Source: a virus. From it: a stretch of DNA of 37,825 bases. The position numbers and the translations under genes are program-made. The stretch covers positions 1 through 37,825 of IMG/VR virus record IMGVR_UViG_3300045988_165575, one strand, 5' to 3'. The notes beneath the pieces were generated by a model. That model was given only the letters and a program-made list of their open reading frames with translations. It was not told the origin of the DNA and ran no database searches. Below are positions 6,748 to 37,676 of this stretch, piece by piece (position 1 is the stretch's first letter; every line of letters starts with the position of its first letter).

Positions 6748-7143
6748 TCACCCCTTTCGCGCCACGATTTTAAAGGTCACATTGTCAACAACATTCAGAC
6801 TGCTGTTGTACAGCGGCGCACTTCTGTTGCCGACATAAAACTCTTTTGTTACATATCCGCCCTCGAGCATATTTAAGTACTTGACCGTTATATACTCCGG
6901 ATTGAACATTTTCAGAATCTTGCTCGCGTTCGCTATGGACAACCCGGAAAATTTAAGCGTTACCGCGTCGGTCTGTCCTATGCGTTTTTTGTGCATAACG
7001 ACATCTTCGGTACGCCCTGCGTCGCTGGCCGAAGCGTCCTCAAGCTCCCATTTATATCCGTCCTCTGTGTCAGGATATACCGGCATAGTTACGCCGTCCA
7101 CGGTAGCTATCGGATTGTCGCCGGGATTAAAAGCGGTTGCCAC
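6748..7143 (-). CDS. Putative distal tail protein (Dit-like, short)
   Basis: 131 aa with a GTG start and a GGTGG RBS. Assigned by position as the first tail gene after the tape measure. Sequence assignment is weak. Confidence 0.35.
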   Translation of the reverse strand: MATAFNPGDNPIATVDGVTMPVYPDTEDGYKWELEDASASDAGRTEDVVMHKKRIGQTDAVTLKFSGLSIANASKILKMFNPEYITVKYLNMLEGGYVTKEFYVGNRSAPLYNSSLNVVDNVTFKIVARKG

Positions 7144-7870: not shown

Positions 7871-10637
7871 ATTCGTTTATCGGAACGATTACTTTACCGG
7901 CGCGCATATTGACATTTCTAAGCTCGTTTACAATATCGCCGCGCTCGTTCATGACGACAATCGTTACGGTTCCGCCATTGCTTCTCTCCATAGCCCTTTC
8001 GACACCGCGCTCAACACCCAACGAAACGCCGTCCACAATTTGGCTGTTGTTGGCAACTGCTGTCCTGCCTCCGATTTGTCCAACCATCTCGGGTCCGCTC
8101 TCACGGGCAATAAAGAGTTGTCCGGTATCAGGATATCCGCCGGATGCATACTGCTGTGCCCCGGTAGATCGGGTTTTTACTGTCACATCGCAGCTTACAC
8201 CGTTTATATTGTTGATGTTATTTTTAAGCTTGACGAGCTGATCCGAATAATACTTAGTCTTTTTGCTTGCGTCGTCCATTGCAGCCGATGTGTTCTTAAT
8301 AGCTTTGCGCGACTGCTCTAAAGCGTCTTCGGCATGTTCGACTTCTTTTTTAAGCGCTCGATATTCCGGACTAAGCTTTTGCGATATCCAGTTCGCGACA
8401 TCACGAAGGCCATCTGATACGCCCTGATTTTTCTTGTCAAGTTCTGCCGCCTTTTCGTTCAGCTTATTTTGTGCCTCGGCAAGCCTATCTGACGCAACCT
8501 TGTAATTGTCAGTCGCCGTCTTGTTGTCAATTGTTGCTTGATAAAAGGCTTTGTATGATTCAGTAAGAATGTCTTGCATTGCAGCCATTTCAGCCTGTTT
8601 CTTCAAAGCCTCTATGACTCCGTAAATTGAGTCCTTAGTCTCCACAACCACGCCTTTGGTCTCGTCGATACTCAAATGCAATCCGTCGATATTCATGGCA
8701 TTCAGGGTGTCAACCTTGACGCGCATCAAGTCCATTTCATAGGCGGACTTATTTGACTTTTCGCTCAACTGATATATCTCGTCGGTGAGCATTTTAACTG
8801 CGCCGTACTCCGCGCTGACAGTGTTCAGCCCCTCTATCTTCTGATTAAGACCGTCCATATTTTCTTTTGTTCTTTGGATAATCGCCTCAGAGGCCGCAAT
8901 GTTTTCTGATAACACCTTATAGGCATCGGAGGATTGGTAGGTCTTTTCTGCAAGTTCATCTGCACCCTGTTCAAAACCTATGATAGCTCCCGTGATTGCA
9001 CCAATTGCCGCGACGACCAGTCCGGCCGGACCCAACGCCGCATACATAGCCACTGCAACGGCAGTAAGTCCTACTGCCATAACCGCCAGTTTGGCTTTGG
9101 CGTCTTCTGCGCCCGCGCCGAGTGCCTTAAAAGCGGACTTTGCCATCACCAGCGATGCTGCGAATCCTGCCGCGCCTATCATGGCTTTTTGAGTTGCCGA
9201 CAAACCCGCTCGGAACTGCTCCAAGCTGTCTTTGGCGGCACCCGCGGCTTTCTTCCATCCATAGCCTAACGCCTGCGCTGTGCTTCCTCCGGTCTCCTTT
9301 ATCCAAGAAAAACTCTCGGTAAAAGTAGAGACAACTCTCAGCCCCTTAAAGCTATTCCACACACCTTTTGCGCCGGAGTACCATTTGCGCAGCACCTTTA
9401 CGCCGAAAGCGGCGGCCGCGCCGGCTGCAACTCCCTTTATCACCGGCTCAAGCGCCGAGACTGTGGATTTCACCTTTTTAAGCTTCTGCTTCAGCTCCTC
9501 TGCGCGCTCTGCAAGCTTCGGGTCAATAACGCTGTCAGCGTTGGAAAATGGGCTCTTAAAATTGTTTCCTCCGCTCGATACCGTTGTGCTGCTTCCGCCG
9601 CCGTTGCCGCTATCAGATCCGGTGTCCGGCGTTCCGAGACGATTGATTTCATCGATGCCGAGCAAAGCGTTTTTATAATCCTTCGCCCTTTTCGCCGCAC
9701 TGCCGAGTTTTGTGGACACTTGCTGTGTACTGTTGGCGAGCTTGGAGGTATTTGACGATGTCCGGCTTGTTGCACTTGACGTACCAAACAATATAGCCAT
9801 GACTTGCCCGGCTTTTTCGGCGAGCGCGGTCAATCTTTCAAGCAACGCCGTAACATGCGGGATACACTGCTGCAAAGCCGGCGCAAACATTGACCCGAGC
9901 GCACTTGACAACATTTTTGTCTGAGCTTTCAAAGCAGCCTGCGCTCCTGCGAGGGTGTTCGCATATTTCGCGGCATCCCCGGTCTGGAATGCCGTCTCCC
10001 GCATGATGCCTTGTGTCGTGGCTATGCGCTTTTCTGCGTCGGTCAGCGTTGCTGCAGTCTTGCCTATCGATGCCGCGTATTCGTCCCATATAACGGACAG
10101 GTTTTTTGTAACGCCGGCGTTGTCGACAAGAATGCTGTTTTCGTTTTTGATACCTTCGGCTGCACTCTTTATAGCTTCGCCCATCGTCATACTGCCCTGA
10201 CGGTTAAACGCCGCCGAATCTTTAAGGTTAGTCAGTATGGACTGTGTCTGCTCGTCGGAATACCCTGTCGCCGCGAGGCTCTTATACGCGGTGTAGGCGT
10301 CCATCATCGGGATAAGACCGTCTTTGGTATACGATTTAAGCCACGCTTTCGCGGCGTTCAGGTCTTTTCCCTGCGCGGTCAATATGCTCGACAAGCCCAT
10401 CTGCGCGGCTTCGTTTTCCGCATATGCGTCCGTCAACTTCTTGACCTCGCTTACTACTTTCTGTATGGCCGCAACGGCAGCGGTAGTTTTTATGCCTGTA
10501 AAAAGCTTTCCGACACCCGCTCCCGTGCGCGTTGCCTGCTGTTCAAGCGACCCCAGTCTCTTGTTCGCCTTATCGATCTTGGCGTTAAAGTCCTTGGTGT
10601 TTGCTGTAATCAGCACTTGCAGTTCTTCAATCGTCAT
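7869..10637 (-). CDS. Tail tape measure protein
   Basis: About 920 aa of Ala/Gly-rich helical sequence with a central hydrophobic segment, located after the G/G-T genes. ATG 10637 (AGGTGAG RBS) is preferred over the track start at 10682, which has no RBS. Confidence 0.85.
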   Translation of the reverse strand: MTIEELQVLITANTKDFNAKIDKANKRLGSLEQQATRTGAGVGKLFTGIKTTAAVAAIQKVVSEVKKLTDAYAENEAAQMGLSSILTAQGKDLNAAKAWLKSYTKDGLIPMMDAYTAYKSLAATGYSDEQTQSILTNLKDSAAFNRQGSMTMGEAIKSAAEGIKNENSILVDNAGVTKNLSVIWDEYAASIGKTAATLTDAEKRIATTQGIMRETAFQTGDAAKYANTLAGAQAALKAQTKMLSSALGSMFAPALQQCIPHVTALLERLTALAEKAGQVMAILFGTSSATSRTSSNTSKLANSTQQVSTKLGSAAKRAKDYKNALLGIDEINRLGTPDTGSDSGNGGGSSTTVSSGGNNFKSPFSNADSVIDPKLAERAEELKQKLKKVKSTVSALEPVIKGVAAGAAAAFGVKVLRKWYSGAKGVWNSFKGLRVVSTFTESFSWIKETGGSTAQALGYGWKKAAGAAKDSLEQFRAGLSATQKAMIGAAGFAASLVMAKSAFKALGAGAEDAKAKLAVMAVGLTAVAVAMYAALGPAGLVVAAIGAITGAIIGFEQGADELAEKTYQSSDAYKVLSENIAASEAIIQRTKENMDGLNQKIEGLNTVSAEYGAVKMLTDEIYQLSEKSNKSAYEMDLMRVKVDTLNAMNIDGLHLSIDETKGVVVETKDSIYGVIEALKKQAEMAAMQDILTESYKAFYQATIDNKTATDNYKVASDRLAEAQNKLNEKAAELDKKNQGVSDGLRDVANWISQKLSPEYRALKKEVEHAEDALEQSRKAIKNTSAAMDDASKKTKYYSDQLVKLKNNINNINGVSCDVTVKTRSTGAQQYASGGYPDTGQLFIARESGPEMVGQIGGRTAVANNSQIVDGVSLGVERGVERAMERSNGGTVTIVVMNERGDIVNELRNVNMRAGKVIVPINE

Positions 10638-13388: not shown

Positions 13389-14501
13389 TCAGCCCACCAG
13401 CCTTGCGGTCATGTCGCTGTCAAGGGTCTTGACGCCGTACAGGATATCAAAGCTGACGCGGTCGGTCTTGTGCTTGATGTCGTAGTCATATACAACCCTG
13501 ATAGCAAGACCGTTCCTGCTCGACGCAATAGCCGCATTATTCGCGCCCATAGGCAGCTCAAGCTGACGGGTAACGAGTGCAAGGCCGTTGCGGTGGAATG
13601 CGAGGGAATGGGTCGTTTTGACGAGATATACCTTAATCGCCGCATCCGAAGCAATGGTGCGATGGATAGGCTGGTCTATCGCGACCTCAGCGACCGCGCC
13701 GCTTGCGGCAGTTGCATCGGCGGCAAATCTGTAAAGATAGCCGTCGAGGATAAAGCCGTCGCCCTTTTTAAAGGTGCCGGTCGCCGCAGTGACATCCGAG
13801 AGTGCGACCTTGGTCTCGCCGGCGGTGCAGGAGACTTTTGCAGCGGTCGCAGTGCCCGCAGTTGCCGCGAGGGTATCGGGGGCATTCTGCGACATATAGG
13901 TGTCAAGACCATAGATAGAGCCGAGCTCTGCTGAGCGCAGGGCGTCGGAATTGCCTGCATATGCGACCTTTGAGAGGTTTTCCGTGGTCAGATAGCGATA
14001 CTTGTGCGTCGGATTGACGAGAAGTCTGCGCTGCTGTATCGGTACGCCCTTGAGGTCAAATGCCTTGGCAATGTTGGCAATGTCCTTGAGGTCGGCCGCG
14101 TTCGCGGTGCCGCTCACGGTGTTGCCGGCGTTTGCGATGCCTTCGGCGATAATATCGCTGTCGATGGCCTGGGATATGGCCTGCACCGCAGGAGATATGA
14201 TCTGCTCAGAAAATGACTTGATGTCGAGGGTCATTTCCTTGGAAGTGACCGGAACGGTGACATCGCGGAAATGGTCAAGGGTCACCTTGACGCTGCCCTC
14301 GTTCACATTCTGGTCTACGGTCTCGCCGACGAAGTTCTTCGCGGAAAACTTCGCGGGCTTGCGGATGGTGATAGTATCACCGACGTGTGCGAACTCCTTG
14401 GAATAGTCCTTGTGGACAAGGTCGGCAGCAACGAGATTGTTCTCGAGCACCATAAGAGCCTCGTTCGCGACTATCTGAGGAGTCAGGAATTTGTTTGACA
14501 T
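13389..14501 (-). CDS. Major capsid protein (P22 coat-like family)
   Basis: The N-terminus TPQIVANEALMVLENNLVAADLVHKDYSKEF...GDTITIRKP is typical of this family. 370 aa. Confidence 0.8.
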   Translation of the reverse strand: MSNKFLTPQIVANEALMVLENNLVAADLVHKDYSKEFAHVGDTITIRKPAKFSAKNFVGETVDQNVNEGSVKVTLDHFRDVTVPVTSKEMTLDIKSFSEQIISPAVQAISQAIDSDIIAEGIANAGNTVSGTANAADLKDIANIAKAFDLKGVPIQQRRLLVNPTHKYRYLTTENLSKVAYAGNSDALRSAELGSIYGLDTYMSQNAPDTLAATAGTATAAKVSCTAGETKVALSDVTAATGTFKKGDGFILDGYLYRFAADATAASGAVAEVAIDQPIHRTIASDAAIKVYLVKTTHSLAFHRNGLALVTRQLELPMGANNAAIASSRNGLAIRVVYDYDIKHKTDRVSFDILYGVKTLDSDMTARLVG

Positions 14502-14519
14502 TTGTTAAATCCTCCGTTT

Positions 14520-15077
14520 TTACTGATTTTTGCGCCAATTCACATAATCGGCATAGTTCTCGGGGGCTTCGCCCGGTTCGGGGTCTCCGCCGCCGTGGTC
14601 GGGGTCTCCGCCCCTCTGTCTGGTTTCGACTTTGTCAAAGAGATAGGCGTCGCTTTCTCTGATTGCCTTGAGCTGATCGTCAAAGCCCTCGAGCTTGCCG
14701 TCTTTGTCGAGTTTCACACTGCCGGGTGTTATCAAGGCTTTTATAGCTCTTGCGTTCTTGCCTTTGGCGGCTGTAATAGCGGCATCGATAGCGGAGTCAA
14801 GTTTCATGGCAGCGATATCGCTGTCATACTTAGCCTTAGCCTGCTTGTTCTCGTTCTGCAGCTGTGTAATTGTAGCCTGCAGTCCGGCGGTATCAACCTT
14901 TTTGAGCTCTTCAAGCTGACTGTCCCGCTCTGCTATCTGGCCCTCAAGGTTCTTGACCTTATCGGACTCGGCGCGAAAATCTGCTTTTGAAACAAAGTTC
15001 TTGCCGATATAGCTCGCTATCTTCTTGTCGATGTCCTCGGTGTGTGCGTCGCCTAAAATGTCTTTAAGCCAGTCCAT
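14520..15077 (-). CDS. Scaffolding protein (GP20-like)
   Basis: The start was moved to ATG 15077 (AAGGA RBS). It begins MDWLKDILGD, followed by coiled-coil sequence, and lies upstream of the capsid gene. Confidence 0.7.
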   Translation of the reverse strand: MDWLKDILGDAHTEDIDKKIASYIGKNFVSKADFRAESDKVKNLEGQIAERDSQLEELKKVDTAGLQATITQLQNENKQAKAKYDSDIAAMKLDSAIDAAITAAKGKNARAIKALITPGSVKLDKDGKLEGFDDQLKAIRESDAYLFDKVETRQRGGDPDHGGGDPEPGEAPENYADYVNWRKNQ

Positions 15078-15164
15078 GTCTGTCCTTTCCCGCGCTCCCT
15101 TTTTACTTGGCCAGTCCCAATATTGCGCGACACCATTTTGCTCCGGGTGGCGGATAAATTTGGA

Positions 15165-15203
15165 TATAAAAACAGCGCTTTGCATTTGACTGCAAAACGC
15201 TGT
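15165..15203 (-). terminator. Internal terminator after the toxin-immunity pair
   Basis: On the minus strand, ACAGCGTTTTGCA pairs with TGCAAAGCGCTGT (13-bp stem, one mismatch) with loop gtcaaa, followed by TTTTAT. Confidence 0.55.
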
Positions 15204-15262
15204 AATTATTATGTTGTAATATGACAAAACCGCTTCGCTTTCGCTTGGCGGCTTGTTATTTA

Positions 15263-15622
15263 TTATTGATCCTCTTCATCAAGAGTATCTTTTCCGAAAG
15301 CCTTTATATAGCTCTCGGTAAGGTCTTTCATGATTATGGGGGCTTCCTCTTCGTCCAGTATTCCGTCAAGGCGACCTTTGAGCAAATCCTCATAGTAGAG
15401 ATAGAGCTCGTCGCTCATGGCTTCGCTGAGATCGTTGTTGTCCACTTCCCACTTTATCAGCGGAAGTACCGCGTTAAGACGTTCGGCTTCTTCAAGGATA
15501 TCCTGATCGAATTCTGTGAGATATGAGTTTTCGAGCAAATCTCCCGTTTTCGGCTGTATACCCGTGCTTAAACGGTCTTCGAGAATTTCTGTTGCTCCCT
15601 GATAATCAAGCTCGTACTTCAT
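15263..15622 (-). CDS. Putative immunity protein for the MuF-fused toxin (very acidic)
   Basis: ATG 15622 overlaps the toxin TGA as ATGA. The protein is 119 aa, with 33 D/E versus 10 K/R by my count. An alternative TTG start lies at 15646. Confidence 0.55.
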   Translation of the reverse strand: MKYELDYQGATEILEDRLSTGIQPKTGDLLENSYLTEFDQDILEEAERLNAVLPLIKWEVDNNDLSEAMSDELYLYYEDLLKGRLDGILDEEEAPIIMKDLTESYIKAFGKDTLDEEDQ

Positions 15623-17358
15623 CTTTTTCTCATCCTTTCCTTCCAAACATTGCCTTCGACCCTTTTGTTTGAGATAACATTCACTTCAACATCCGGGTAT
15701 AGTTCTTTAAATTGCTGCATTACCCCTTTGCAACTATCGCACATTCCACGTTCGGAAAGCATACATATCTTTTTAAAAGGGTTTGTTTCATACAAATCGG
15801 CAAAGAACTCGAAGAGCTTCGCCTCAGTGTCATTGTAGGTTTCTTTCCTCATCGTTCCATCCGTTTTGGGAACATCAATGTATTTAAAACGTCGAGCCTC
15901 TTTAAGTAAAACTAATTTTCCAGTTCCTTTGTACCCACCGATACTTGCTTTTCCGGATATGGCACTGTGTGCATAGTACATATTGTCAAAATCATCATCG
16001 ATATATGCACCGGCAACGTTTCCGCTTCTTTTGTATTTGTTCGTGAACTGGAGTCTTTTTTCATAAATAACCTTTTTATCAAACCGTAAGATTTCATCAG
16101 TAGATAAATTGCCTGAATCTATCTTGTATTGATTCACCAAGCGGTATTGCCTCTTGAGCGTCTTCCACTTCTCAGGATCATTATACTTTATTTTTAAGAA
16201 TTCATCAAGAGAATCCGGCACATTTTCTTTTAAGACTGCCGAATACCGTTCGAACTGATCTCTATTGTAGGAGGACACTTGTGTCAAAGTCTTGGGCGGA
16301 TAATATTTAAGCTTCCCGGTAAGAGGATTTATATTATCCGCAAGCCACTCTTCATATGTCGTTTCTGCCGGAATAAGCACCGTTTTCCCGGTCTCGGGAT
16401 CCAATGCCCTGCGTTTGAGTTCGGCTCGGTTTTGTCCCTCTATGACTGCCGTTGTAGTGCAGCGGTCGTTCGGATGGAGCGGCGGATAGTTTATGCCCTC
16501 CTTCGCTTCGGAGACCGGAAAAGTCTTGCCGTCCAACGCGCCGCAGACATCACAGGTGCGCCCGTCAAGGGTGGCGAGAAATCTGTATTCCGTTATGCCT
16601 TCCTCTTCGTATGCCACCTTTTCGGCGGCGTTATGCACACGGTTTGTCTCGGTGCGTATCAGCCGCATCGAGCTGTACATTCCGGACTGCATCGCGTCGG
16701 CGAGCTGGCGCGCCATTACCTGCGGACCCGCTCCCGTCATAATCCCACGCGCCACAATACCGTATGCGCTGTTGGCAAGCGCGGATGTGTTCTGCCAGAT
16801 ACGGTCGGAAAAATTCGCGCCTTTCCATCGGTCATTTACTATGGTGTTTACGGCACCTTTCGGCAGGGCTGAGAATTCAAAGCCTAATCCCGTGCCGATC
16901 TGCGTGGCATATATGCTGCGATAGTATGTATCCCCGCTCACGTCTTCAAGCAGCCGCTTGAGTTCCCGCTTCTCCCGGTCGGCAAGCAATGCAGTTTCCG
17001 TCTCGATATTGGCTTTCAAAGCCTCAAGGCGATTTATTCTCGCGGCGTATGCCGGCGCATTGAGACGTGCAAGCGCTTTTCTCTTTATGACCGGGTCTTT
17101 TATATTATTGATTTCTTTGCGCAGTGCCTCCAATTCCGCTTCCGCTTCTATGGTGTTCAACATCCGACGAGCTTCTTCCGGCGTCAATTCGCCGTTTGCC
17201 GCATAACGCGAAAATATCCGATTTATGCGGGCGTCGAGGTCCTTCTGCGCCTTGGCGTATAACTTGACCGTTTTTGTCTTTATAGCCCGCGTCGAGGCAC
17301 GTCGGGCGTATTCCTCGCGCTGCAGTGCCCGCTCCTCCCAATAGAGATCAGAGCGCAT
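15619..17358 (-). CDS. MuF/SPP1 gp7-like minor head protein fused to a C-terminal toxin-like domain (deaminase-like signature)
   Basis: The MuF region runs to TCDVCGALDG...HPNDRCT (about residue 300). The C-terminal 135 aa carry D510-T-E512 and C540-D-S-C543, 28 residues apart. Confidence 0.8.
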   Translation of the reverse strand: MRSDLYWEERALQREEYARRASTRAIKTKTVKLYAKAQKDLDARINRIFSRYAANGELTPEEARRMLNTIEAEAELEALRKEINNIKDPVIKRKALARLNAPAYAARINRLEALKANIETETALLADREKRELKRLLEDVSGDTYYRSIYATQIGTGLGFEFSALPKGAVNTIVNDRWKGANFSDRIWQNTSALANSAYGIVARGIMTGAGPQVMARQLADAMQSGMYSSMRLIRTETNRVHNAAEKVAYEEEGITEYRFLATLDGRTCDVCGALDGKTFPVSEAKEGINYPPLHPNDRCTTTAVIEGQNRAELKRRALDPETGKTVLIPAETTYEEWLADNINPLTGKLKYYPPKTLTQVSSYNRDQFERYSAVLKENVPDSLDEFLKIKYNDPEKWKTLKRQYRLVNQYKIDSGNLSTDEILRFDKKVIYEKRLQFTNKYKRSGNVAGAYIDDDFDNMYYAHSAISGKASIGGYKGTGKLVLLKEARRFKYIDVPKTDGTMRKETYNDTEAKLFEFFADLYETNPFKKICMLSERGMCDSCKGVMQQFKELYPDVEVNVISNKRVEGNVWKERMRKR

Positions 17359-18893
17359 TATTCATCATCCTTTTCGGAATCGTCCTTGTCGTCATCGTCG
17401 CCGATAAACATCTTTGCGTTTTCCTCGCGCTGCTTCTGCAGCTCTTCATACGCCTGCGCGACATCATCAACAAACGGGTGCTTTGCTAAAAGCATCTTAT
17501 CAGGCACAAGCCCTTGCGACTTCTGGATTATGTCCACCGTCTCCGCATCATTGACTATCATCGACTTGTGGACATCGTATTTTATAAGCGTATAGTCATA
17601 GTCGGTACCGTTCTTCAGGTTGATATCCTGCGTAATAAACCATGACAGCTCTTTCAGCATGACCTTTAACTTTGAGACAAGCGGGTCAGCCTTAAGGTCA
17701 AGCAGAGTGTAGCGAAATTTCAGACTGACGCCTGACGGCGCACTGCCGAGCTTTTCATCGTTCATATCAATGCCGCGTCCGATATGATATATGTCCCGGC
17801 GCAGCATATCGAGCCAGGCGAGGCGCTCGGTGACATTAAGTGTGACCTGCTCCGCGCTTATCTTGCCGGACGGATCGCTTATTGACACCGCCTTGTTTAT
17901 CTGCAGCTTCTGCTGTATCGCTTTTGCGGTCTCGCCGCCGTATCCCTGTATCATCCAGTAAAGCTCGACGAGATCTATCTGATTGTTCGTCGACGCGGAA
18001 GATATCAGGTTGTATGCGTCAAGCAGACCTTTGATCCGCGAAAGATCGGTCTGATGTGCAGAGTTGTTATAAAGCGGAACAAACGGAATTCTTCCCCAAG
18101 ACCGCGCTTCAACCGAAACGCGCTCGTCGTTGATTATCTGCTCGTTATACCAGTGCGGGCTGTTGCTTTCGAGCACAAACTCTCCGGCATCGTTTTCGAC
18201 ATAGCGTTTTACCCCTGTCGCAGTCCACCACTCTACCCGCTCCCGCTCCGTCTCTGTGCCGTTTTGCACGACGGTTATTTTATAATGGCGGAAAAAGTCG
18301 GTAATCACCTGCTGATAGCTCATATCGCGGCAGGCAATACATTCCGTCGTCGGGATAACAACAAAACAAAGCCTGCCGGCTGCCGAGTAATAGACATGCA
18401 GCCATCCGACGATACAATTCGACGCATTTGTTGCGAGGTCGGGGAGCATGTCCACAAAAGCCTCGTCTGAGGTCACTGCGGTGACGGCGTCCTCAAAAGC
18501 TTTCAGACTTTCATCTGCACCGCCCGCTCCGTCATTTACGCCCTCAACAGAGACGGAAAGTGGCTTGCCGAGGATGTACGCGACCTTCTGGTCGACCATC
18601 AGCGCATGGAAATTATGCACATTGTGGTGATTCGAATTGTTTTCGTTGATTATCTTAACACCGCCGCGCTTTATGCCCGCCGGGCTGTTTTCGTCTTCTT
18701 CGTAGACGACCGTCTCGCGAAAATCTTTCTGCAGAATGTCCTGCATACCGCGATAATATCGGAGTCCCTCGCATGCCGCCAGATAATCCGGGTCTTCCCG
18801 CGCATTTTTAAGCACGGTTTTGATAATCTCATCGTCCGTAGCCGTATGGTGATACGCGAGCTTTTCTCTTATCAAGTCCATATTGTTAATCAT
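17358..18893 (-). CDS. Portal protein (SPP1 gp6-like)
   Basis: 511 aa with an acidic C-terminus, located between TerL and MuF. It overlaps each neighbour by 1 nt. Confidence 0.85.
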   Translation of the reverse strand: MINNMDLIREKLAYHHTATDDEIIKTVLKNAREDPDYLAACEGLRYYRGMQDILQKDFRETVVYEEDENSPAGIKRGGVKIINENNSNHHNVHNFHALMVDQKVAYILGKPLSVSVEGVNDGAGGADESLKAFEDAVTAVTSDEAFVDMLPDLATNASNCIVGWLHVYYSAAGRLCFVVIPTTECIACRDMSYQQVITDFFRHYKITVVQNGTETERERVEWWTATGVKRYVENDAGEFVLESNSPHWYNEQIINDERVSVEARSWGRIPFVPLYNNSAHQTDLSRIKGLLDAYNLISSASTNNQIDLVELYWMIQGYGGETAKAIQQKLQINKAVSISDPSGKISAEQVTLNVTERLAWLDMLRRDIYHIGRGIDMNDEKLGSAPSGVSLKFRYTLLDLKADPLVSKLKVMLKELSWFITQDINLKNGTDYDYTLIKYDVHKSMIVNDAETVDIIQKSQGLVPDKMLLAKHPFVDDVAQAYEELQKQREENAKMFIGDDDDKDDSEKDDE

Positions 18894-20125
18894 TAAGTTA
18901 CCCTCACATTCTGCTGGTCGTTCTCTGTGGCGTAGCGCGTGGCGTCAATCGTGTGGTTGTCTCTATCGGGATAGTTCGCCTTATAATTGCCGTCCTTATC
19001 CCGTTCGAGCTCATACGATGAAAATTCCCGCGCCGCATTTGGACAGCGGGCGGAATCTATTATTATTTCGTCGAGGTCGCGCAGCCATTCTATGCCGTGC
19101 TTCACGCTGTCCGGACCCTTGCGTGCGCCTCTGACTCTCAGGCCGTATTCATACATATCCGCTATAGACTTCGGTTCGGCGGAGTCTGCGATAATTTCGC
19201 CGGCAACTCCACGAGATTTTATACGGTCGGCGGCAAGTCTGTTGCTCATGCCCGCCGCGTATATCTCATCGTATATGTACAGCCGCCTGCGCGGCTTGTC
19301 ATAGTTGCACGATATAAAAACAAACGGGTCAACCGCATAGCCCCAGTCTATGCCGCGCCTGATACGGTCAAACCGCGCAATCTCTTCATTGCTGATGGGT
19401 CGGATACTGATGTTCCGGAATACCTCGCCGCCCGTGCCGGTGACTTCCCCGAGGAACTCGTGCCTATATCGTTCCGGAGAGTGCTGTTTCAGGTGCTCCG
19501 CCTCCAACAGCAGCGGCGCGCCTATCCAGTCCTGCGGCACAGTCAAATATGTGCTGTGATGTACCAGGCGGTCGGCGCGCTCTACGCGCACCTCATCATT
19601 CACCCATGCCCTCAGCGACTCGGGGGGATTGTACGAATAAAAAACATCGAATTTACTGCCGCCGCGCATGACCGACTGCAGCACATTATCGGTTTCCCGT
19701 ATCCCGGAAAACTGATTCCATTCCTCGAACCAGATATAACGAAAATAGCCGAACGGGATTTTTATGGACTTGACTTTCATCGGATCGTCAAGACCTCGAA
19801 ACATAATCGTTTGCCCGCTCGGCAGATATGTGATTTTCATCGGACTGACCGTCGCTTTAAAATACTGCGACACGCCCAGTTTATCAATAGCCCACAGCAT
19901 TTGTGCAAAAACGCTGTCCCGCAGCGTGTCTGCAATTTTGCGGAACACGATCGCGTGCGCGTCAGGGTTTTTAATGATGCCGCAGACAATTTCAAGCGAT
20001 ATATAGCTGCTCTTCGTGCTTCCGCGCCCGCCTTTAAGCACATAGTGCGTATGCTGCCCAGCACACACATCGCGATGCACCTCATAAAACGACGGCGCGA
20101 TTATGTCAGTAAGCCTGACGGCCAT
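18893..20125 (-). CDS. terL: Terminase large subunit (PBSX/Terminase_3-like)
   Basis: A Walker A-like motif, LKGGRGSTKS, lies near the N-terminus. 410 aa. Confidence 0.85.
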   Translation of the reverse strand: MAVRLTDIIAPSFYEVHRDVCAGQHTHYVLKGGRGSTKSSYISLEIVCGIIKNPDAHAIVFRKIADTLRDSVFAQMLWAIDKLGVSQYFKATVSPMKITYLPSGQTIMFRGLDDPMKVKSIKIPFGYFRYIWFEEWNQFSGIRETDNVLQSVMRGGSKFDVFYSYNPPESLRAWVNDEVRVERADRLVHHSTYLTVPQDWIGAPLLLEAEHLKQHSPERYRHEFLGEVTGTGGEVFRNISIRPISNEEIARFDRIRRGIDWGYAVDPFVFISCNYDKPRRRLYIYDEIYAAGMSNRLAADRIKSRGVAGEIIADSAEPKSIADMYEYGLRVRGARKGPDSVKHGIEWLRDLDEIIIDSARCPNAAREFSSYELERDKDGNYKANYPDRDNHTIDATRYATENDQQNVRVT

Positions 20126-20126
20126 A

Positions 20127-20513
20127 TTAGCCGCCTCCTATATCGTCGATAATCTGCGGCGCGTTGACGGAGACTTCTTTTTTTTCAACCGCTGTAAAAC
20201 CCGCTCGGTCAAGAATATCTTTTGCGGCCGCGATGATATCACGGTCATCGGCATACTTTTTCTTCAAAATTCCTGCCATTGCTTCCTGGGCATCGGCGGC
20301 GTCATATAAAAAGCGACGCCGGATACTCTCCGCGATTTCTTCCTCTCGCCGCGCCATATATTCCTGCGCATCTTGGCGTTTTAAAATATATGTCGCCATC
20401 GTCGCCGCCGACCTTTCGGAATAACCGGCAGCAATAGCCGACTCGCGTGCTGCCCCGTATGCCCTTTTTCTTTTAACAAATTCATCACAAAAAGTAATCA
20501 TCCGCTCTGTCAT
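20127..20513 (-). CDS. terS: Terminase small subunit (Terminase_2-like)
   Basis: ITFCDEFV...AAGYSERSA is typical of this family. The start was set to ATG 20513, downstream of GGAGGTGG. Confidence 0.75.
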   Translation of the reverse strand: MTERMITFCDEFVKRKRAYGAARESAIAAGYSERSAATMATYILKRQDAQEYMARREEEIAESIRRRFLYDAADAQEAMAGILKKKYADDRDIIAAAKDILDRAGFTAVEKKEVSVNAPQIIDDIGGG

Positions 20514-20593
20514 TCGACTCTGCCACCTCCTCTGTTTTATAAAAGTCACAAAGGCTTTTAATTTGTCGCGCGCGTGAGAGTTTTATAATGCTA

Positions 20594-31277: not shown

Positions 31278-31436
31278 TCAAAATATGTCACGAATATAAA
31301 TGCATACCCACAGCGCAACATTAAGCCAGCCCAAAAAAGCGTGCACTTTTTTGTATCTTTCATCGCCCGGGCACAGACTCGTTACGCTACAAAATATCGA
31401 CATCACCAGCACGGCGATGCAGGTGTTTTTGCTCAC
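31278..31436 (-). CDS. 52-aa small membrane protein with two hydrophobic segments
   Basis: The GTG start overlaps the upstream TGA as GTGA, with GGAGG 7 nt upstream. It is below the ORF-track cutoff. Confidence 0.4.
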   Translation of the reverse strand: MSKNTCIAVLVMSIFCSVTSLCPGDERYKKVHAFLGWLNVALWVCIYIRDIF

Positions 31437-34803: not shown

Positions 34804-34821
34804 ATAGGCGAGGTGATCAAT

Positions 34822-35478
34822 ATGCCAAGCTTTGCAGAAAGATTAAATGAAGCCTTAGAACGCAGAAATATGACCGCAGCGGAACTTGCGAGAGCGTTGA
34901 ATGTCGCTGACGCTACAATAAGCAATTATAAAAAAGGAATCTACGCACCAAAACAAAGAAGAACTGAAGAAATATCAAAAATTTTAAATGTATCTATTCC
35001 GTGGTTAATGGGTGCAGATGTTCCCATGAAGCCGCTAAACCTCGTTTCTCCGAATGTGACCGAAGATGTTGTTACGTTCCCGGTAATAGGCAATATTGCT
35101 GCCGGATATGAAGAAATTGCAGTCGAGGATTGGAGCGGCGAAACCATAGATGTCCCACGCTCTTTTCTCAAGGGACGAAGCAAATCCGACTTTTTTGTTC
35201 TAAAGGTACACGGTGATTCAATGTACCCGACATACCACACTGACGATAAAGTCCTCATTCTTCGGCAAACCTTTATTGAGCGCAGCGGAGATGTTGGTGC
35301 CGTTATTTACGACAGCGAATGTGCGACACTCAAGCGTATCGATATCTTTGATGGCATGGTTAGGCTCAGCCCCCTCAATCCGTCATATCCGCCCAAAGAG
35401 TTAACCGGCACGGATCTCGAGCACTATCGCATCCTGGGCATACCGTATCTTCTTGTAAGGGAGATAATTAAAAACTAA
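34822..35478 (+). CDS. cI: cI/LexA-like repressor (HTH plus S24 peptidase domain)
   Basis: The HTH region is TAAELARALNVADATISNYKKG. The S24 motifs are HGDSMYPT and a downstream Lys. The start is ATG 34822, with a GAGGTGA RBS. Confidence 0.85.
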   Translation: MPSFAERLNEALERRNMTAAELARALNVADATISNYKKGIYAPKQRRTEEISKILNVSIPWLMGADVPMKPLNLVSPNVTEDVVTFPVIGNIAAGYEEIAVEDWSGETIDVPRSFLKGRSKSDFFVLKVHGDSMYPTYHTDDKVLILRQTFIERSGDVGAVIYDSECATLKRIDIFDGMVRLSPLNPSYPPKELTGTDLEHYRILGIPYLLVREIIKN

Positions 35479-35640
35479 TAGTAAAAGGTGGTTTAAAGTT
35501 TGAAAGAGAAGAATTTACAGATAGGTTTAAACCCGCTATTCTTGTTGATGGCGGATTTTACAGAAAATGCGCCAGAAGGCTATGGGGCAAAAAGAGCGCG
35601 AATCACAAATATATAAATTGAACGAGGGGGCTTCAAAACC

Positions 35641-36492
35641 ATGACTTCTGAAATAACCACATATAATGAGCAAATTTTTGAGGACATAAAACATATTAAC
35701 GACGACGGGCAGGAATATTGGCTTGCAAGAGAGCTTCAGACCGTTTTGGATTACACACAGTGGCGCCGTTTTTCAGATACGATTGAACGAGCAAAACTCG
35801 CCTGCAAGAACAGCGGATTTGCAATTGATGACCATTTTGCCGACGTTGGCAAAATGGTTGACATCGGCTCTGGCGCGGAGCGCGAGGTGGATGATGTTAT
35901 GCTTTCCAGGTATGCATGTTATCTGATTGTCATGAACGGGGATCCTCGCAAAGAAGTAATAGCTCTCGGGCAATCATACTTTGCCGTAAAAACGCGCCAG
36001 CAAGAGCTCATTGACAATTACGAAGAGCTGACCGAAGATCAGAAGAGGCTTGCCATTCGAAACGAGATGAAGCGCCACAATACAGCTCTTGCAAACGCCG
36101 CGCACGATGCCGGAATCATTGACCCCAAAGACTATGCAATCTTTCAGAATAAAGGATATCAAGGTCTCTACGGCGGTCTCGGTGCTAAAGATATTCACCG
36201 TCGAAAGGGATTAAAAAAGAGTCAAAATATTCTCGACCACATGGGCAGCACAGAACTCGCCGCCAATCTCTTTCGTGCAACTCAAACGGAAGAAAAGCTT
36301 CGCAGAGAAAATGTTCGCGGCAAAGAAAAGGCAAATCAAACGCACTATGATGTTGGAAGAAAAGTGAGAAAGACCATAGAAGAACTCGGCGGAGTCATGC
36401 CCGAGAATTTGCCGACACCCGAAAAGAGTATAGAGCAAATCAAAAGAGCAGAGGAGAAAAAACGCATTTCAGAAAAGACAAAAGATAAATAA
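35641..36492 (+). CDS. dinD: DNA damage-inducible protein D (DinD)-like protein
   Basis: WLARELQTVLDY..W..F...IERAK..C...G, LSRYACYLIVMNGDPRKE and QSYFAVKTR resemble DinD. Confidence 0.65.
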   Translation: MTSEITTYNEQIFEDIKHINDDGQEYWLARELQTVLDYTQWRRFSDTIERAKLACKNSGFAIDDHFADVGKMVDIGSGAEREVDDVMLSRYACYLIVMNGDPRKEVIALGQSYFAVKTRQQELIDNYEELTEDQKRLAIRNEMKRHNTALANAAHDAGIIDPKDYAIFQNKGYQGLYGGLGAKDIHRRKGLKKSQNILDHMGSTELAANLFRATQTEEKLRRENVRGKEKANQTHYDVGRKVRKTIEELGGVMPENLPTPEKSIEQIKRAEEKKRISEKTKDK

Positions 36493-36617
36493 AAGAACCC
36501 CCGGTGCTGGAACACCGAGGGCTCAAGAAAATCAACACACACCTACGACAGAGTGGATTGATATATTTATTATATCACCCGCTCTGAGGAAACACAAGTA
36601 AAGGAGCGGTGTTTTTT

Positions 36618-37676
36618 ATGAAAAATCCAAACGGATATGGAACGATCCGCAAACTCAGCGGAAACCGGCGCAAACCCTGGGCTGTTCTTGCTCCGCAGAG
36701 CAGCTCCGAATATTCCCTCGAAAAGCAACGCAAGCTGATAGGCTGCTACGCCACGAGGGCAGAGGCAATGACAGCTCTCGGCGCATGGCATAAGACTCCG
36801 CATCTTGATGTTCCGGCTTCTGCCGAAAACATCACACTCGCACAGCTGTGCGCCGAATATAAAAAATTACAGAAATTCAAGAATCTCGCGAAACAGACAC
36901 AGGATAATTATAATGCCGCATGGAACAAGCTTTCTGTACTCGGTTCATATAAAGTAAAAGATTTGCGAGCCGCCCATTTCCAGACAGTCGTTGACACGGC
37001 ACATCAGAACGGACTCTCCGCCTCTTCTCTGCAAAAAATAAAACTCTTCGCTTCCCTGCTTTGTGATTACGCCGTGCAAAATGACATTGTTGTCAAAAAT
37101 TATGCAAGCTTCGTCACCCTCCCAAAAGCAGAAACGAAAGAAAAGGTACCGTTCAGCGATCTCGATTTGCAAAAACTCGAGTCCGCCGCAAAGGCAGGCT
37201 TTATGTACGCAGACCTAATTCTGATTATGTGCTACACGGGTTGGAGAATCAATGAATTTTTGGCACTTACGCCGTTCAGCTGGGATGCCGCAAATCATAC
37301 TCTTCGCGGCGGCGAAAAGACCGAAGCCGGAAAGAATAGAGTTGTCCCGGTCTCCGATAAAGTAATGCCGTATCTGCAAAAGTGGCTCGATAAAGGTGGA
37401 CCGACAATAGTTTGCCATGAGCACAACGGCAAACTCGTCCCGGTAACAGCGCGCTACTTTCGCGCAAAATGGTACTACCCTACACTTGAGGCGCTCGACT
37501 TGCCTCGCCTGACGCCACACGCGACCAGGCACACATTTGCTTCTATGTTGCACCGCAACGGCGCCGATAAATGGGATATTCAGCGACTCATGGGACATTC
37601 TTCGGAAGTCGTTACCAATAAAGTCTACACCCATGTTGACATCGATCAGCTTCAAAAAGCGGTCAATTTGTTATAA
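36618..37676 (+). CDS. int: Tyrosine integrase
   Basis: The C-terminal catalytic region is HATRHTFASMLHRNGADKWDIQRLMGHSS...VYTHV. The gene is adjacent to attR. ATG 36618 is preferred over GTG 36609. Confidence 0.9.
   Translation: MKNPNGYGTIRKLSGNRRKPWAVLAPQSSSEYSLEKQRKLIGCYATRAEAMTALGAWHKTPHLDVPASAENITLAQLCAEYKKLQKFKNLAKQTQDNYNAAWNKLSVLGSYKVKDLRAAHFQTVVDTAHQNGLSASSLQKIKLFASLLCDYAVQNDIVVKNYASFVTLPKAETKEKVPFSDLDLQKLESAAKAGFMYADLILIMCYTGWRINEFLALTPFSWDAANHTLRGGEKTEAGKNRVVPVSDKVMPYLQKWLDKGGPTIVCHEHNGKLVPVTARYFRAKWYYPTLEALDLPRLTPHATRHTFASMLHRNGADKWDIQRLMGHSSEVVTNKVYTHVDIDQLQKAVNLL

What the first reader, a model, noticed from the sequence alone, without database searches (positions are those of the whole stretch)
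15263..16400. MuF head protein fused to a deaminase-like toxin domain, with an ATGA-coupled acidic immunity candidate
The 579-aa protein is a normal MuF/SPP1 gp7 morphogenesis protein up to about residue 300-330. It then continues for about 250 residues through a segment that looks distinctly AT-richer than the MuF part. The last 135 aa read NVAGAYIDDD..YYAHS..KLVLL..YNDTEAKLFEFFADLY..KKICMLSERGMCDSCKGVMQQF..VEVNVI. This gives a strand-helix-strand-helix-strand pattern, with D510-x-E512 and C540-x-x-C543 spaced 28 residues apart. That matches the [H/C/D]xE...CxxC zinc and catalytic signature of the cytidine-deaminase fold, and it parallels the layout of DddA-type toxins (HVE...TCGFC). The next gene starts in an ATGA overlap and encodes a 119-aa protein with 33 D/E versus 10 K/R, as expected for a cognate immunity or inhibitor protein. 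MuF-fused polymorphic toxins are a published class in temperate Firmicutes phages. The Asp-for-His variant and the exact substrate (DNA, RNA or nucleotide) would be new. A virion-packaged deaminase could be injected with the DNA.
Basis: partly seen in the sequence, partly recalled or inferred. Interest (0 to 1): 0.8.

Follow-up and report, generated by a model that had tools for sequence, protein, structure and literature searches.

The report
Phage head protein carrying deaminase toxin
A temperate gut-bacterial phage has a swappable DNA cassette at the end of its minor head-protein gene that encodes a known type of bacterial cytosine-deaminase toxin and a matching acidic antidote protein; this type of system has been described before, but no case with a nucleic-acid deaminase has been tested experimentally.

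Summary
A 579-aa ORF (15619-17358, minus strand) has a Phage_Mu_F/SPP1-gp7 domain and a C-terminal Pfam PF14424 'Toxin-deaminase' (BURPS668_1122 clade) domain (E = 6.6e-35). D510-x-E512-x-K514 and C540-x-x-C543 are invariant in 31 homologues. A 119-aa acidic ORF overlaps the stop codon (ATGA). G+C falls from 0.55 to about 0.38 at residue 330-340.

The core interpretation holds, but Asp-for-His is not new. DxE defines this clade (Iyer 2011), and that paper already noted a terminase-linked Clostridium example.

New here:
- Sibling phages are 96-98% identical on both sides, but window 15254-16339 (residues 341-579 plus the small ORF) is replaced by unrelated sequence with other small ORFs.
- An inner 807-bp piece is 93% identical to chromosomal, non-phage loci.
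- The small ORF follows the deaminase in 14 of 15 informative genome loci, and the pair diverge together.
- The small ORF belongs to a small uncatalogued five-helix family with no match in Pfam, PHROGs, NCBIfam, PADLOC or PDB.

Verdict: a new member of the known MuF polymorphic-toxin kind, with a previously uncatalogued immunity family. Catalysis, packaging and injection are inferred.

The parts
15619..17358 (-). 579-aa MuF-deaminase fusion gene (minor head protein with a C-terminal toxin)
   Evidence: ORF. Pfam PF04233 plus PF14424. PHROG 115 minor head protein. TIGR01641. The identical protein occurs on at least 9 human-gut metagenome contigs in the order terminase-portal-MuF-small ORF-scaffold-capsid.
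16339..17358 (-). Residues 1-340: MuF/SPP1-gp7 region, the presumed capsid/portal-targeting part. It ends at the conserved junction ...TYEEWLA (residue 340).
   Evidence: 97% identical to MuF proteins of sibling phages up to residue 340, unrelated after that. DNA is 96% identical to L039-L041 from window 21000 (20177 for L041) down to 16339/16340. GC of residues 1-310 is 0.55.
16063..16338 (-). Residues 341-432: pre-toxin linker that travels with the deaminase. No family match.
   Evidence: The last ~70 residues are retained upstream of the deaminase in loci without this MuF. Residues 421-443 are helical in the model, which starts at residue 421. No Pfam hit. GC of residues 361-432 is 0.36.
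15664..16062 (-). Residues 433-565: BURPS668_1122-type (PF14424) deaminase domain
   Evidence: E 6.6e-35, 120.8 bits, profile positions 3-146 of 146. AF2 pLDDT 89.5 with topology a1-b1-b2-insert-a2-b3-a3-b4. The best solved-structure matches other than two isocitrate-dehydrogenase chains are APOBEC3C/G/H and yeast CDD1, and all matches are weak.
15823..15831 (-). D510-T511-E512: predicted zinc ligand (Asp) and catalytic Glu at the N-cap of helix 2. K514 follows.
   Evidence: Invariant D-T-E-A-K-L in 31 homologues. Matches the clade signature DxExK (PMC3239186).
15730..15741 (-). C540-D-S-C543: predicted zinc-binding CxxC at the start of helix 3
   Evidence: SERGMCxSC is invariant in 31 homologues. 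Helix 121-133 of the model.
15622..15663 (-). Residues 566-579: basic C-terminal tail (VEGNVWKERMRKR), low-confidence in the model
   Evidence: pLDDT 52-67 in the last two blocks. W is invariant and G nearly so.
15619..15622 (-). ATGA overlap of the toxin stop codon and the immunity start codon (translational coupling)
   Evidence: Sequence read. The same 4-nt overlap occurs in chromosomal copies L007 and L012.
15263..15622 (-). 119-aa acidic five-helix protein, the predicted cognate immunity protein
   Evidence: 33 D/E against 10 K/R. AF2 pLDDT 89, five helices. Directly follows the deaminase in 14 of 15 informative genome loci. Absent from sibling phages that carry other C-termini. Toxin and immunity identities correlate (Mantel r 0.78, 0/5000). 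No hit in Pfam, PHROGs, NCBIfam or PADLOC, and no significant match in PDB.
15254..16339 (.). The exchangeable toxin-immunity cassette (1086 bp): the only segment that differs from sibling phages
   Evidence: blastn: window 21000->16340 and 15253->12000 are 96-98% identical to L039/L040/L041. The segment between is replaced by unrelated sequence of 913 or 747 bp. It coincides with the low-GC stretch.
15264..16070 (.). Inner cassette (residue 430 to the immunity stop codon) shared with chromosomal, non-phage loci
   Evidence: 807 nt, 92.6-92.9% identical to L007/L008/L017, where it sits on a 277-aa stand-alone protein plus a 125-aa ORF between housekeeping genes.
15163..15256 (-). Two hairpins after the immunity gene. 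The second (15203..15172, 13-bp stem plus T-run) looks like an intrinsic terminator at the 3' edge of the module.
   Evidence: Terminator scan. Fold -36.4 kcal/mol, z = -7.6. The core is invariant in L007, L012, L017, L009 and L019, although the L009 coding DNA is only 68% identical.
17358..18893 (-). SPP1-type portal protein gene, immediately upstream. The portal is the expected docking partner of MuF.
   Evidence: PF05133 on the identical gene in L001.
18893..20549 (-). Large (18893-20125) and small (20127-20549) terminase subunit genes
   Evidence: PF04466/PF03237/PF17288 and PF03592.
13389..15076 (-). Scaffold gene (14520-15076 from the ATG; Phage_scaffold) and 370-aa major capsid candidate (13389-14501)
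   Evidence: PF06810, E 2.4e-44, starting at residue 53 of the long ORF. Gene calls.
34813..37676 (+). Lysogeny genes: S24/HTH CI-like repressor (34813-35478), Bro-N protein (35641-36492) and tyrosine integrase (36609-37676). They show the phage is temperate.
   Evidence: Pfam hits.

Best explanation
This is a MuF-family polymorphic toxin of a temperate siphovirus-like phage of gut Clostridia (Oscillospiraceae-type hosts).

Residues 1-340 are the ordinary SPP1-gp7/MuF minor head protein. By analogy with gp7, this part docks on the portal and is built into the capsid in a few copies. This step is inferred.

After the conserved junction TYEEWLA, a horizontally exchanged cassette (window 15254-16339) supplies three things:
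- a linker (residues 341-432);
- a 135-residue zinc-dependent cytosine deaminase of the BURPS668_1122 clade. Predicted ligands are D510, C540 and C543, with catalytic E512. The core is truncated after strand 4 and ends in a basic tail;
- a translationally coupled 119-aa acidic five-helix immunity protein.

In the producing cell the immunity protein is made stoichiometrically with the toxin. It most likely blocks the toxin by direct binding, which protects the replicating phage and host DNA (inferred). The deaminase is then carried in the virion and enters the next cell with the DNA. In a cell that lacks the matching immunity protein it deaminates cytosines. The most likely substrate is single-stranded DNA, the activity reported for other PF14424 members. 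The result would be uracil lesions, mutation or growth arrest (inferred).

Shown here: domain identities, invariant catalytic residues, the cassette boundaries, the polymorphism of the C-terminus, and strict co-variation of toxin and small ORF.

Inferred: catalysis, substrate, inhibition by binding, packaging and injection.
For: **Domain identity**
- PF14424 E 6.6e-35 and PF04233 E 2e-17; TIGR01641.
- DTEAK and SERGMCxSC are invariant in 31 homologues.
- AF2 pLDDT 89.5 with a deaminase-like order of elements and the two motifs at helix N-termini.
- Most of the best solved-structure matches are APOBEC3 proteins and CDD1, though all are weak.

**Head-module position and temperate lifestyle**
-.

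**Polymorphism**
- MuF N-termini 97-98% identical to this one carry either PF14424 or unrelated C-termini.
- More distant MuFs carry PF15542, PF21814, PF03496 or PF18451, or no extension.

**Cassette boundaries**
- Flanks are 96-98% identical to sibling phages, with only 15254-16339 replaced. The replacement carries different small ORFs (75 aa, 48 aa) and no homologue of the 119-aa protein.
- An inner 807-bp piece is 93% identical to chromosomal loci.
- GC drops from 0.55 to 0.36-0.40.

**Immunity role of the small ORF**
- It follows the deaminase behind MuF1, MuF2, MuF remnants and a non-MuF 277-aa protein.
- Mantel r = 0.78, 0/5000. The immunity protein diverges faster than the toxin (mean 44% against 61% identity).

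**Literature**
- The clade is defined by DxE, with terminase-based delivery proposed (PMC3239186).
- PF14424 members gave ssDNA cytidine deamination in a base-editor reporter (bioRxiv 10.1101/2023.05.21.541555).
- The MuF toxins Apk2 and Bxa are toxic and are neutralised by adjacent immunity genes (PMC11699363).
Against: - No experiment on this protein or on any MuF-fused nucleic-acid deaminase was found.
- There is no solved structure of the family. Foldseek matches to deaminases are weak (E >= 0.04, TM about 0.4) and DddA/SsdA are not among the top hits.
- Two sub-features of the published clade signature are absent: T507 replaces Arg in RxxD, and G545 replaces Ser in CxxCxS.
- Aspartate as a zinc ligand has not been structurally verified for this clade.
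- Toxin-immunity binding could not be modelled because the structure jobs were exhausted.
- A strong terminator-like hairpin between the immunity and scaffold genes, inside a late operon, is unexplained.
- The biological purpose of MuF toxins is itself unresolved (PMC11699363).
Confidence: 0.78

Rival explanations
1. The molecular parts are the same, but the purpose differs. The virion-borne deaminase is an early-phase effector injected to help the phage itself, for example by damaging host or competing-phage DNA/RNA, disabling nucleic-acid-based defences or shutting down the host. It is not a weapon used by the lysogen against competitors. The small protein then only protects the phage's own replication late in infection.
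For: - Iyer et al. 2017 (PMC5512222) argue that MuF-fused enzymes are effectors delivered into the host with the DNA, like T4 Alt.
- The toxin sits in the late head operon and is made only in lytic growth.
- The purpose of MuF toxins is acknowledged as unknown (PMC11699363).
Against: - The same toxin-immunity pair also exists as stand-alone chromosomal loci with no phage around.
- Orphan or truncated immunity genes are widespread in chromosomes.
- Rapid swapping of toxin-immunity cassettes among near-identical phages is the hallmark of inter-strain conflict, where immunity matters in the recipient.
- Jamet 2017 found MuF toxins only in temperate phages.
Confidence: 0.17
2. The C-terminal domain is a catalytically dead or purely structural/nucleic-acid-binding extension of the head protein, and the small ORF is a head-assembly accessory rather than an immunity protein.
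For: - Iyer 2011 notes inactive members of this clade in Perkinsus, and that many members are C-terminally truncated.
- The domain here lacks helix 4 and strand 5.
- SPP1 gp7 is itself a DNA-binding protein (from my own knowledge).
Against: - All four catalytic and metal residues, and their surrounding motifs, are invariant across 31 homologues down to 39% identity.
- Sibling phages with 96-98% identical head genes lack both the domain and the small ORF, so neither is needed for head assembly.
- The pair also occurs outside phages.
Confidence: 0.03
3. The domain is a free-nucleotide (dCMP/dCTP/cytidine) deaminase used for phage nucleotide metabolism or nucleotide depletion, not a nucleic-acid deaminase.
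For: - The deaminase fold includes CDA/dCMP deaminases. Yeast CDD1 and M. smegmatis cytidine deaminase appear among the weak fold matches.
- Substrate cannot be read from sequence.
Against: - No match to the CMP/dCMP deaminase Pfam families was returned. The match is to the toxin clade PF14424, whose secondary weak hits in homologues are APOBEC/AID-like families.
- PF14424 members were reported active on ssDNA in a base-editor assay.
- Fusion to a capsid protein and a dedicated protein inhibitor are not features of metabolic deaminases.
Confidence: 0.02

Closest known systems
BURPS668_1122 clade of toxin deaminases (Pfam PF14424 'Toxin-deaminase'; Iyer, Zhang, Rogozin & Aravind 2011, PMC3239186)
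   Same: - Strong HMM match.
- DxExK at helix 2 and CxxC at helix 3.
[quoted passage not shown]
- Role as the C-terminal module of polymorphic toxins followed by a small immunity gene.
- 'Terminase based' delivery is already listed for this clade, with a Clostridium perfringens example.
   Different: - This gut-Clostridia subclade has Thr in place of the Arg of RxxD, and Gly in place of the Ser of CxxCxS.
- Its immunity partner is none of the listed families (Imm2, Imm3, SUKH).
- The prototype members are delivered by T5SS/T6SS/T7SS rather than by a phage head.
MuF polymorphic toxins of temperate phages (Zhang et al. 2012, PMC3482391; Jamet et al. 2017, PMC5576092). Characterised members are Apk2 ((p)ppApp synthetase) and Bxa (ADP-ribosyltransferase) (PMC11699363).
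   Same: - N-terminal MuF domain next to portal and terminase genes.
- Variable C-terminal toxin.
- Small ORF under 150 aa immediately downstream.
- Temperate phage.
- Alternative C-termini on near-identical N-termini.
   Different: - The toxin here is a nucleic-acid-type deaminase. The word 'deaminase' does not occur in Jamet 2017's main text or its held supplements.
- The deaminases mentioned for Bacteroides MuF proteins are glutamine deamidase-type.
- No enzymatic second immunity protein is present here.
DddA / SCP1.201-like deaminases (PF14428, BaDTF1) with DddI; also SsdA (DYW-like, BaDTF2)
   Same: [quoted passage not shown]
- [H/D]xE...CxxC spacing of about 28 residues.
- Neutralised by a small cognate immunity protein.
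- Iyer 2011 describes SCP1.201 as related to the BURPS668_1122 family.
   Different: - No PF14428 match at E<=1.
- Asp rather than His as the first ligand.
- Delivered by T6SS, not in a capsid.
- DddA and SsdA are not among the top fold matches.
- The immunity protein has no significant fold match in the PDB library searched (best E = 1.0).
Clostridium phage phiCT9441A gp40 and Terrisporobacter phage TVCOM_ph1 CDS0003 (GenBank 'minor head protein')
   Same: These are the only two distinct phages (three records) among 50,697 GenBank phage records with a homologue of this domain. The architecture is identical: terminase, portal, MuF(1 or 2)-PF14424, a small ORF of 100-110 aa, scaffold, capsid.
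   Different: - Only 39% identical in the deaminase domain.
- Their downstream small ORFs are unrelated to the family found here (hhalign probability below 1%).
- They are annotated without any mention of the deaminase.

Membership tests
BURPS668_1122 / PF14424 Toxin-deaminase clade | Match to the family HMM above the curated gathering score | tested here: met
   120.8 bits against a cut-off of 29.6, E 6.6e-35, profile positions 3-146 of 146.
BURPS668_1122 / PF14424 Toxin-deaminase clade | DxExK motif in helix 2 (Asp in place of the usual His/Cys) | tested here: met
   D510-T-E512-A-K514 is invariant in 31 homologues and sits at the N-terminus of model helix 91-105. Signature as published in PMC3239186.
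BURPS668_1122 / PF14424 Toxin-deaminase clade | Arg three residues before the Asp (RxxDxExK) | tested here: not met
   Position 507 is Thr, invariant in this subclade. This is a subclade deviation, not a loss of the catalytic centre.
BURPS668_1122 / PF14424 Toxin-deaminase clade | CxxC at helix 3 (published as CxxCxS) | tested here: met
   C540 and C543 are invariant within SERGMCxSC. The trailing Ser is Gly545 here (CDSCKG), so the extended form CxxCxS is not met.
BURPS668_1122 / PF14424 Toxin-deaminase clade | [quoted passage not shown] | tested here: met
   In the model, strand 41-44 is followed by about 45 residues before helix 91-105. The fold ends after strand 138-142, with no helix 4 or strand 5.
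BURPS668_1122 / PF14424 Toxin-deaminase clade | Zinc-dependent cytosine deamination of nucleic acid | not testable with these tools
   The only support is from the literature on other members (ssDNA activity in a base-editor reporter, bioRxiv 10.1101/2023.05.21.541555).
MuF polymorphic toxins | N-terminal MuF (PF04233/PF06152) domain encoded next to portal and terminase genes | tested here: met
   PF04233 and TIGR01641. Gene order TerS-TerL-portal-MuF.
MuF polymorphic toxins | C-terminal extension of at least 100 aa carrying a toxin domain | tested here: met
   239 residues follow residue 340, including PF14424.
MuF polymorphic toxins | Polymorphism: the same N-terminus with alternative C-termini | tested here: met
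   97-98% identical N-termini occur with PF14424 or with unrelated 564-, 547-, 536- and 483-aa forms. The cassette swap is seen at DNA level.
MuF polymorphic toxins | Small ORF (<150 aa) immediately downstream that co-varies with the toxin | tested here: met
   119-aa ORF with an ATGA overlap. Present in 14 of 15 informative loci. Replaced together with the toxin in sibling phages. Mantel r 0.78.
MuF polymorphic toxins | Carried by a temperate phage or prophage | tested here: met
   Tyrosine integrase, S24/HTH repressor and Bro-N in the window.
MuF polymorphic toxins | Incorporation in the virion, delivery to a target cell, toxicity relieved by the immunity protein | not testable with these tools
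   Needs virion proteomics and expression/competition experiments.
DddA / SCP1.201-like deaminases (PF14428) | Match to the family HMM; HxE first motif | tested here: not met
   No PF14428 hit at E<=1. The only other deaminase family listed is PF14427 at E 0.13. The first motif is DxE.
Known immunity families of this deaminase clade (Imm2, Imm3, SUKH) | Match to the Pfam models of these families | tested here: not met
   None of these families was matched by the window protein (E<=1), by 33 close members (E<=10) or by 41 distant members (E<=0.1). The all-alpha, acidic character resembles the published descriptions of Imm2/Imm3, but that is a resemblance only.

The most novel reading that the evidence does not exclude
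A phage particle carries a compact (about 135-residue) Asp-Cys-Cys-type DNA cytosine deaminase and injects it with its genome. Infection would then directly mutagenise or uracilate the recipient's DNA (or a resident rival's DNA) unless the cell holds the matching member of a new five-helix inhibitor family. That would make this a phage-delivered mutator or kin-discrimination device. It would also be a new small deaminase-inhibitor pair for base-editing tools.
Probability: 0.3. Interest if true: 0.7.

Novelty: new member of a known kind. Interest (0 to 1): 0.4.

Why it matters
MuF toxins are common in gut prophages, yet only two enzyme types (Apk2 and Bxa) have been studied, and what they are for is unknown. 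A capsid-borne nucleic-acid deaminase would be a different kind of payload, because it can leave heritable mutations in survivors, as shown for T6SS-delivered DddA.

This locus offers a clean natural experiment:
- near-identical phages that differ only in a 1.1-kb toxin-immunity cassette;
- the same cassette also sitting in chromosomes;
- orphan immunity genes that are frequent in gut bacteria.

The PF14424 clade has no solved structure, and Asp as a zinc ligand in it is unverified. The immunity protein is an uncatalogued family. Small deaminases with protein inhibitors are also of practical interest for base editing.

Tried and rejected
- **Sequence searches of PDB.** Searches with the domain, with its 31-sequence profile and with the immunity profile found nothing relevant.
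- **Foldseek, deaminase model.** Against PDB it gave only weak matches (best E 0.04, isocitrate dehydrogenase; APOBEC3C/G/H and CDD1 make up most of the top list). Against the viral BFVD library it gave nothing useful. I therefore use the fold search only as weak corroboration of the Pfam result.
- **Foldseek, immunity model.** No match (best E = 1.0).
- **Immunity protein as Imm2/Imm3/SUKH or another Pfam, PHROG, NCBIfam or PADLOC family.** Rejected. Single sub-threshold hits (RPM2, Imm-NTF2, PriA_3primeBD, ABC_tran) are noise.
- **Small ORFs of phages phiCT9441A and TVCOM_ph1.** Tested for relationship to the immunity family; they are unrelated.
- **megablast of the head module against GenBank phages.** No match, so this phage has no sequenced isolate relative.
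- **Toxin-immunity complex prediction.** Not possible with the tools and caps available.
- **DddA-family membership.** Considered and rejected.
- **Metabolic dCMP deaminase role, inactive domain, and head-assembly role for the small ORF.** Considered and rejected (see rival explanations).
- **'MuF-less' loci.** My first impression that many genome loci lacked MuF was wrong. Open-frame extension and Pfam showed that several are MuF2 (PF06152) fusions or MuF remnants.


Full report
**1. What is there**

It lies in a phage head module: small terminase (20127-20549), large terminase (18893-20125), SPP1-type portal (17358-18893), this gene, a 119-aa ORF, scaffold and a capsid candidate. The identical protein, in the same gene order, is found on at least nine human-gut metagenome contigs. 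The window also encodes a tyrosine integrase, an S24/HTH CI-like repressor and a Bro-N protein, so the phage is temperate.

**2.

- Pfam places Phage_Mu_F at residues 202-302 (E 2e-17) and PF14424 'Toxin-deaminase, the BURPS668_1122 family' at residues 433-565 (E 6.6e-35, 120.8 bits against a cut-off of 29.6, covering 3-146 of 146 profile positions).
- NCBIfam TIGR01641 (SPP1 gp7) and PHROG 115 (minor head protein) agree on the N-terminal part.
- In an alignment of 31 homologues (39-90% identical), T507, D510-T-E512-A-K514-L and S-E-R-G-M-C540-x-S-C543 are invariant.
- An AlphaFold2 model of residues 421-579 is confident (pLDDT 89.5). Its order is helix, strand, strand, an insert of about 45 residues, helix (DxE at its N-cap), strand, helix (CxxC at its start), strand, then a basic low-confidence tail.
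- The toxin stop codon and the start codon of the next ORF overlap as ATGA at 15622-15619. That ORF encodes 119 aa with 33 D/E and 10 K/R.
- G+C is 0.551 (GC3 0.63) for residues 1-310. It falls in the block 331-360 and is 0.36-0.40 (GC3 about 0.41) to the end of the gene. It is 0.45 in the small ORF and returns to 0.50-0.56 in the scaffold and capsid genes.

**3. It is a discrete, exchangeable cassette**

This is the most informative new result.

- A search with residues 1-330 found MuF proteins 97-98% identical to this one. Some end in PF14424 (576-578 aa). Others end in unrelated sequence (564, 547, 536 and 483 aa).
- Pairwise alignment places the break after residue 340, at ...TYEEWLA.
- At the DNA level, three sibling phages (L039, L040, L041) are 96-98% identical to the window from 21000 (20177 for L041) down to 16339/16340, and again from 15253/15254 down to 12000.
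- The 1,086 bp in between (15254-16339) is replaced by 913 or 747 bp of unrelated sequence. That replacement encodes a different C-terminus and a different small ORF (75 aa or 48 aa), and no homologue of the 119-aa protein.
- There is a nested inner unit. Window 16070-15264 (residue 430 to the immunity stop codon, 807 nt) is 93% identical to chromosomal loci (L007, L008, L017, an Oscillospiraceae MAG). There the deaminase ends a 277-aa protein with an unrelated N-terminus. It is followed, again with a 4-nt overlap, by a 125-aa homologue of the small ORF, between a GntR/ABC-transporter gene cluster and a dehydrogenase gene.

**4. The small ORF behaves as a cognate immunity gene, not as a head gene**

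A scan of one genome per species found 20 loci, all in Clostridia-type gut or rumen MAGs and isolates.

- Of the 15 loci that hold a complete deaminase and enough downstream DNA, 13 have a tblastn-detectable homologue of the 119-aa protein directly after it.
- One further locus (L027) has distant members detectable by profile comparison (hhalign probability 92-95%).
- Only the most divergent locus, L034, shows none.
- The pair occurs behind MuF1 (PF04233), behind MuF2 (PF06152; L024 has no downstream DNA, L029 has the pair), behind MuF remnants, and behind the non-MuF 277-aa protein.
- Across 18 toxin-immunity pairs, the pairwise identities of the two proteins correlate (Mantel r = 0.78, 0 of 5000 permutations). 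The small protein diverges faster (mean 44% against 61%).
- Linkage alone would give some correlation. Taken together with the clean co-replacement in sibling phages, the head-assembly alternative is untenable.
- Variability is concentrated in the deaminase insert (residues 451-510) and in residues 11-30 of the small protein. The catalytic helices and a DELYLYYED segment of the small protein are almost invariant. I read this as a specificity surface plus a pocket-blocking element. That reading is inference.

**5. The immunity family is uncatalogued**

- The 119-aa protein has no hit in Pfam, PHROGs, NCBIfam or PADLOC.
- Neither 33 close relatives nor 41 distant relatives hit Imm2, Imm3, SUKH or any other immunity family.
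- A profile search of 1.84 billion representative proteins finds only 65 relatives at E <= 0.001.
- Its AlphaFold2 model is a confident five-helix bundle (pLDDT 89).
- It has no meaningful match among solved structures, by fold (best E = 1.0) or by sequence profile.

**6. Comparison with what is known**

- Iyer et al. [quoted passage not shown] They listed 'terminase based' among its delivery routes.
- They also described a Clostridium perfringens deaminase toxin (AC5_0860) next to terminase and capsid genes, and proposed packaging into the capsid.
- Hence the Asp-for-His motif is the hallmark of the family, not a novelty, and the architecture itself is not new.
- This subclade deviates in two minor ways: Thr507 for the Arg, and Gly545 for the Ser.
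- It is not a DddA-type (SCP1.201, PF14428) domain. There is no such hit at E <= 1. Iyer et al. treat the two clades as relatives.
- MuF toxins as a class were described by Zhang et al. 2012 and Jamet et al. 2017. The word 'deaminase' does not occur in Jamet's main text or in the held supplements.
- A 2024 paper states that Apk2, and now Bxa, are the only characterised MuF toxins, and that their biological role is unknown (PMC11699363).
- I found no paper on a characterised MuF-fused nucleic-acid deaminase.
- A 2023 preprint reports that some PF14424 members deaminate ssDNA cytidines when fused to nCas9.
- Among 50,697 GenBank phage records, only Clostridium phage phiCT9441A (two records) and Terrisporobacter phage TVCOM_ph1 carry a homologue. 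It is annotated merely as 'minor head protein', in the same gene order, and is followed by unrelated small ORFs.
- No solved structure exists for the clade. Fold matches to APOBEC3 proteins and CDD1 are weak.

**7. Mechanism: shown versus inferred**

Shown:
- the domain identities and conserved catalytic motifs;
- the head-module position in a temperate phage;
- the polymorphic C-terminus and the cassette boundaries;
- the toxin-linked small ORF.

Inferred from established knowledge of SPP1 gp7/MuF (a portal-bound minor head protein) and of polymorphic toxins:
- residues 1-340 take the fusion into the capsid;
- the deaminase enters the next cell with the DNA and deaminates cytosines, most likely in ssDNA;
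- the acidic protein blocks it by binding in the producer, and in any recipient that carries the matching gene.

The main rival keeps the same parts but sees the enzyme as an early effector serving the phage (Iyer et al. 2017). The stand-alone chromosomal pairs, the orphan immunity genes and the cassette turnover argue for inter-strain conflict, but the two roles are not exclusive.

**8. Verdict**

It is a new member of a known kind (a MuF polymorphic toxin with a BURPS668_1122 deaminase). What is new is an uncatalogued immunity family and an unusually clean demonstration of cassette exchange between sibling phages and chromosomes. Interest is moderate. A specialist would not be surprised by its existence, but a virion-delivered DNA deaminase has never been tested, and this locus is a good system in which to test it.

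Noticed in passing
window 15163-15256 (minus strand); also L007 about 9400-9490, L017 about 7026-7118, L012, L009 8878-8913, L019: Two hairpins follow the immunity gene. The second (15203..15172, 13-bp stem, loop GTCAAA, then TTTTTATAT) is an intrinsic-terminator look-alike. Its core is invariant in loci whose coding DNA is only 68% identical. It lies between the immunity and scaffold genes, inside what should be a late operon. It also falls inside the longest possible scaffold ORF (14520-15227), so the scaffold gene probably starts at the ATG at 15076. It may mark the 3' edge of the module, or end an immunity transcript made in lysogens.
   Followed up: partly
L039/L040 6020-6932 and L041 6021-6767 (the position equivalent to window 15254-16339): Sibling phages carry alternative MuF C-termini (564-aa and 547-aa proteins) with small downstream ORFs of 75 and 48 aa. 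These C-termini have no precomputed Pfam domain and are presumably unknown toxin-immunity pairs.
   Followed up: partly
L013-L016, 8001-8453 (protein P0132): A 150-aa protein is listed in 841 blocks of the collection. It shares the first 85 residues of the immunity family at about 81% identity and then diverges. It sits in a chromosome with no deaminase homologue detected (tblastn), directly beside a variable type I restriction-modification island. It is either an orphan or truncated immunity gene, or a scar of island insertion.
   Followed up: partly
L027 1686-5946: One phage-like contig has two tandem copies of the MuF-deaminase gene (552 aa each, 92% identical), each followed by its own immunity-family ORF (122 and 121 aa). 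Most of the differences between the two copies cluster in the deaminase domain, chiefly its variable insert. This could be a real duplication with diversification or an assembly artefact.
   Followed up: partly
L031 5806-7800: Two consecutive deaminase-immunity pairs whose open frames begin with only the last residues of a MuF domain (PPFHPWCRTTT...). They look like decayed MuF toxin genes kept as stand-alone pairs.
   Followed up: no
L007 8001-9397 (and L012, L017): The chromosomal 277-aa version has an unrelated N-terminal 130 residues containing ...IDIQLFA... and ...LPKKEYAHVMSEIRT..., with no family match. An extra 61-aa ORF lies between the immunity gene and the conserved hairpin. How, or whether, this version is delivered is unknown.
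   Followed up: no
window 33027-33797 (+): A 256-aa Abi_alpha protein (Pfam E 3e-47) also matches the PADLOC candidate defence family PDC-S47 (E 2.5e-74). It lies in the lysogeny region next to the repressor and is a likely prophage-encoded defence gene.
   Followed up: partly
window 16180-16208 (minus strand): A promoter-like site (TTGATG, 17-nt spacer, TATAAT; 10 of 12 matches) lies inside the pre-toxin linker coding region. It could drive expression of the cassette or the immunity gene independently of late transcription, but such matches are common in AT-rich DNA.
   Followed up: no
window 22231-22968 (-), 27479-29062 (-), 31433-32002 (-): Other phage genes seen while surveying the window: an N6/N4 DNA methyltransferase (by identity with L001), a PcfJ-like protein and a cell-wall hydrolase.
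   Followed up: no
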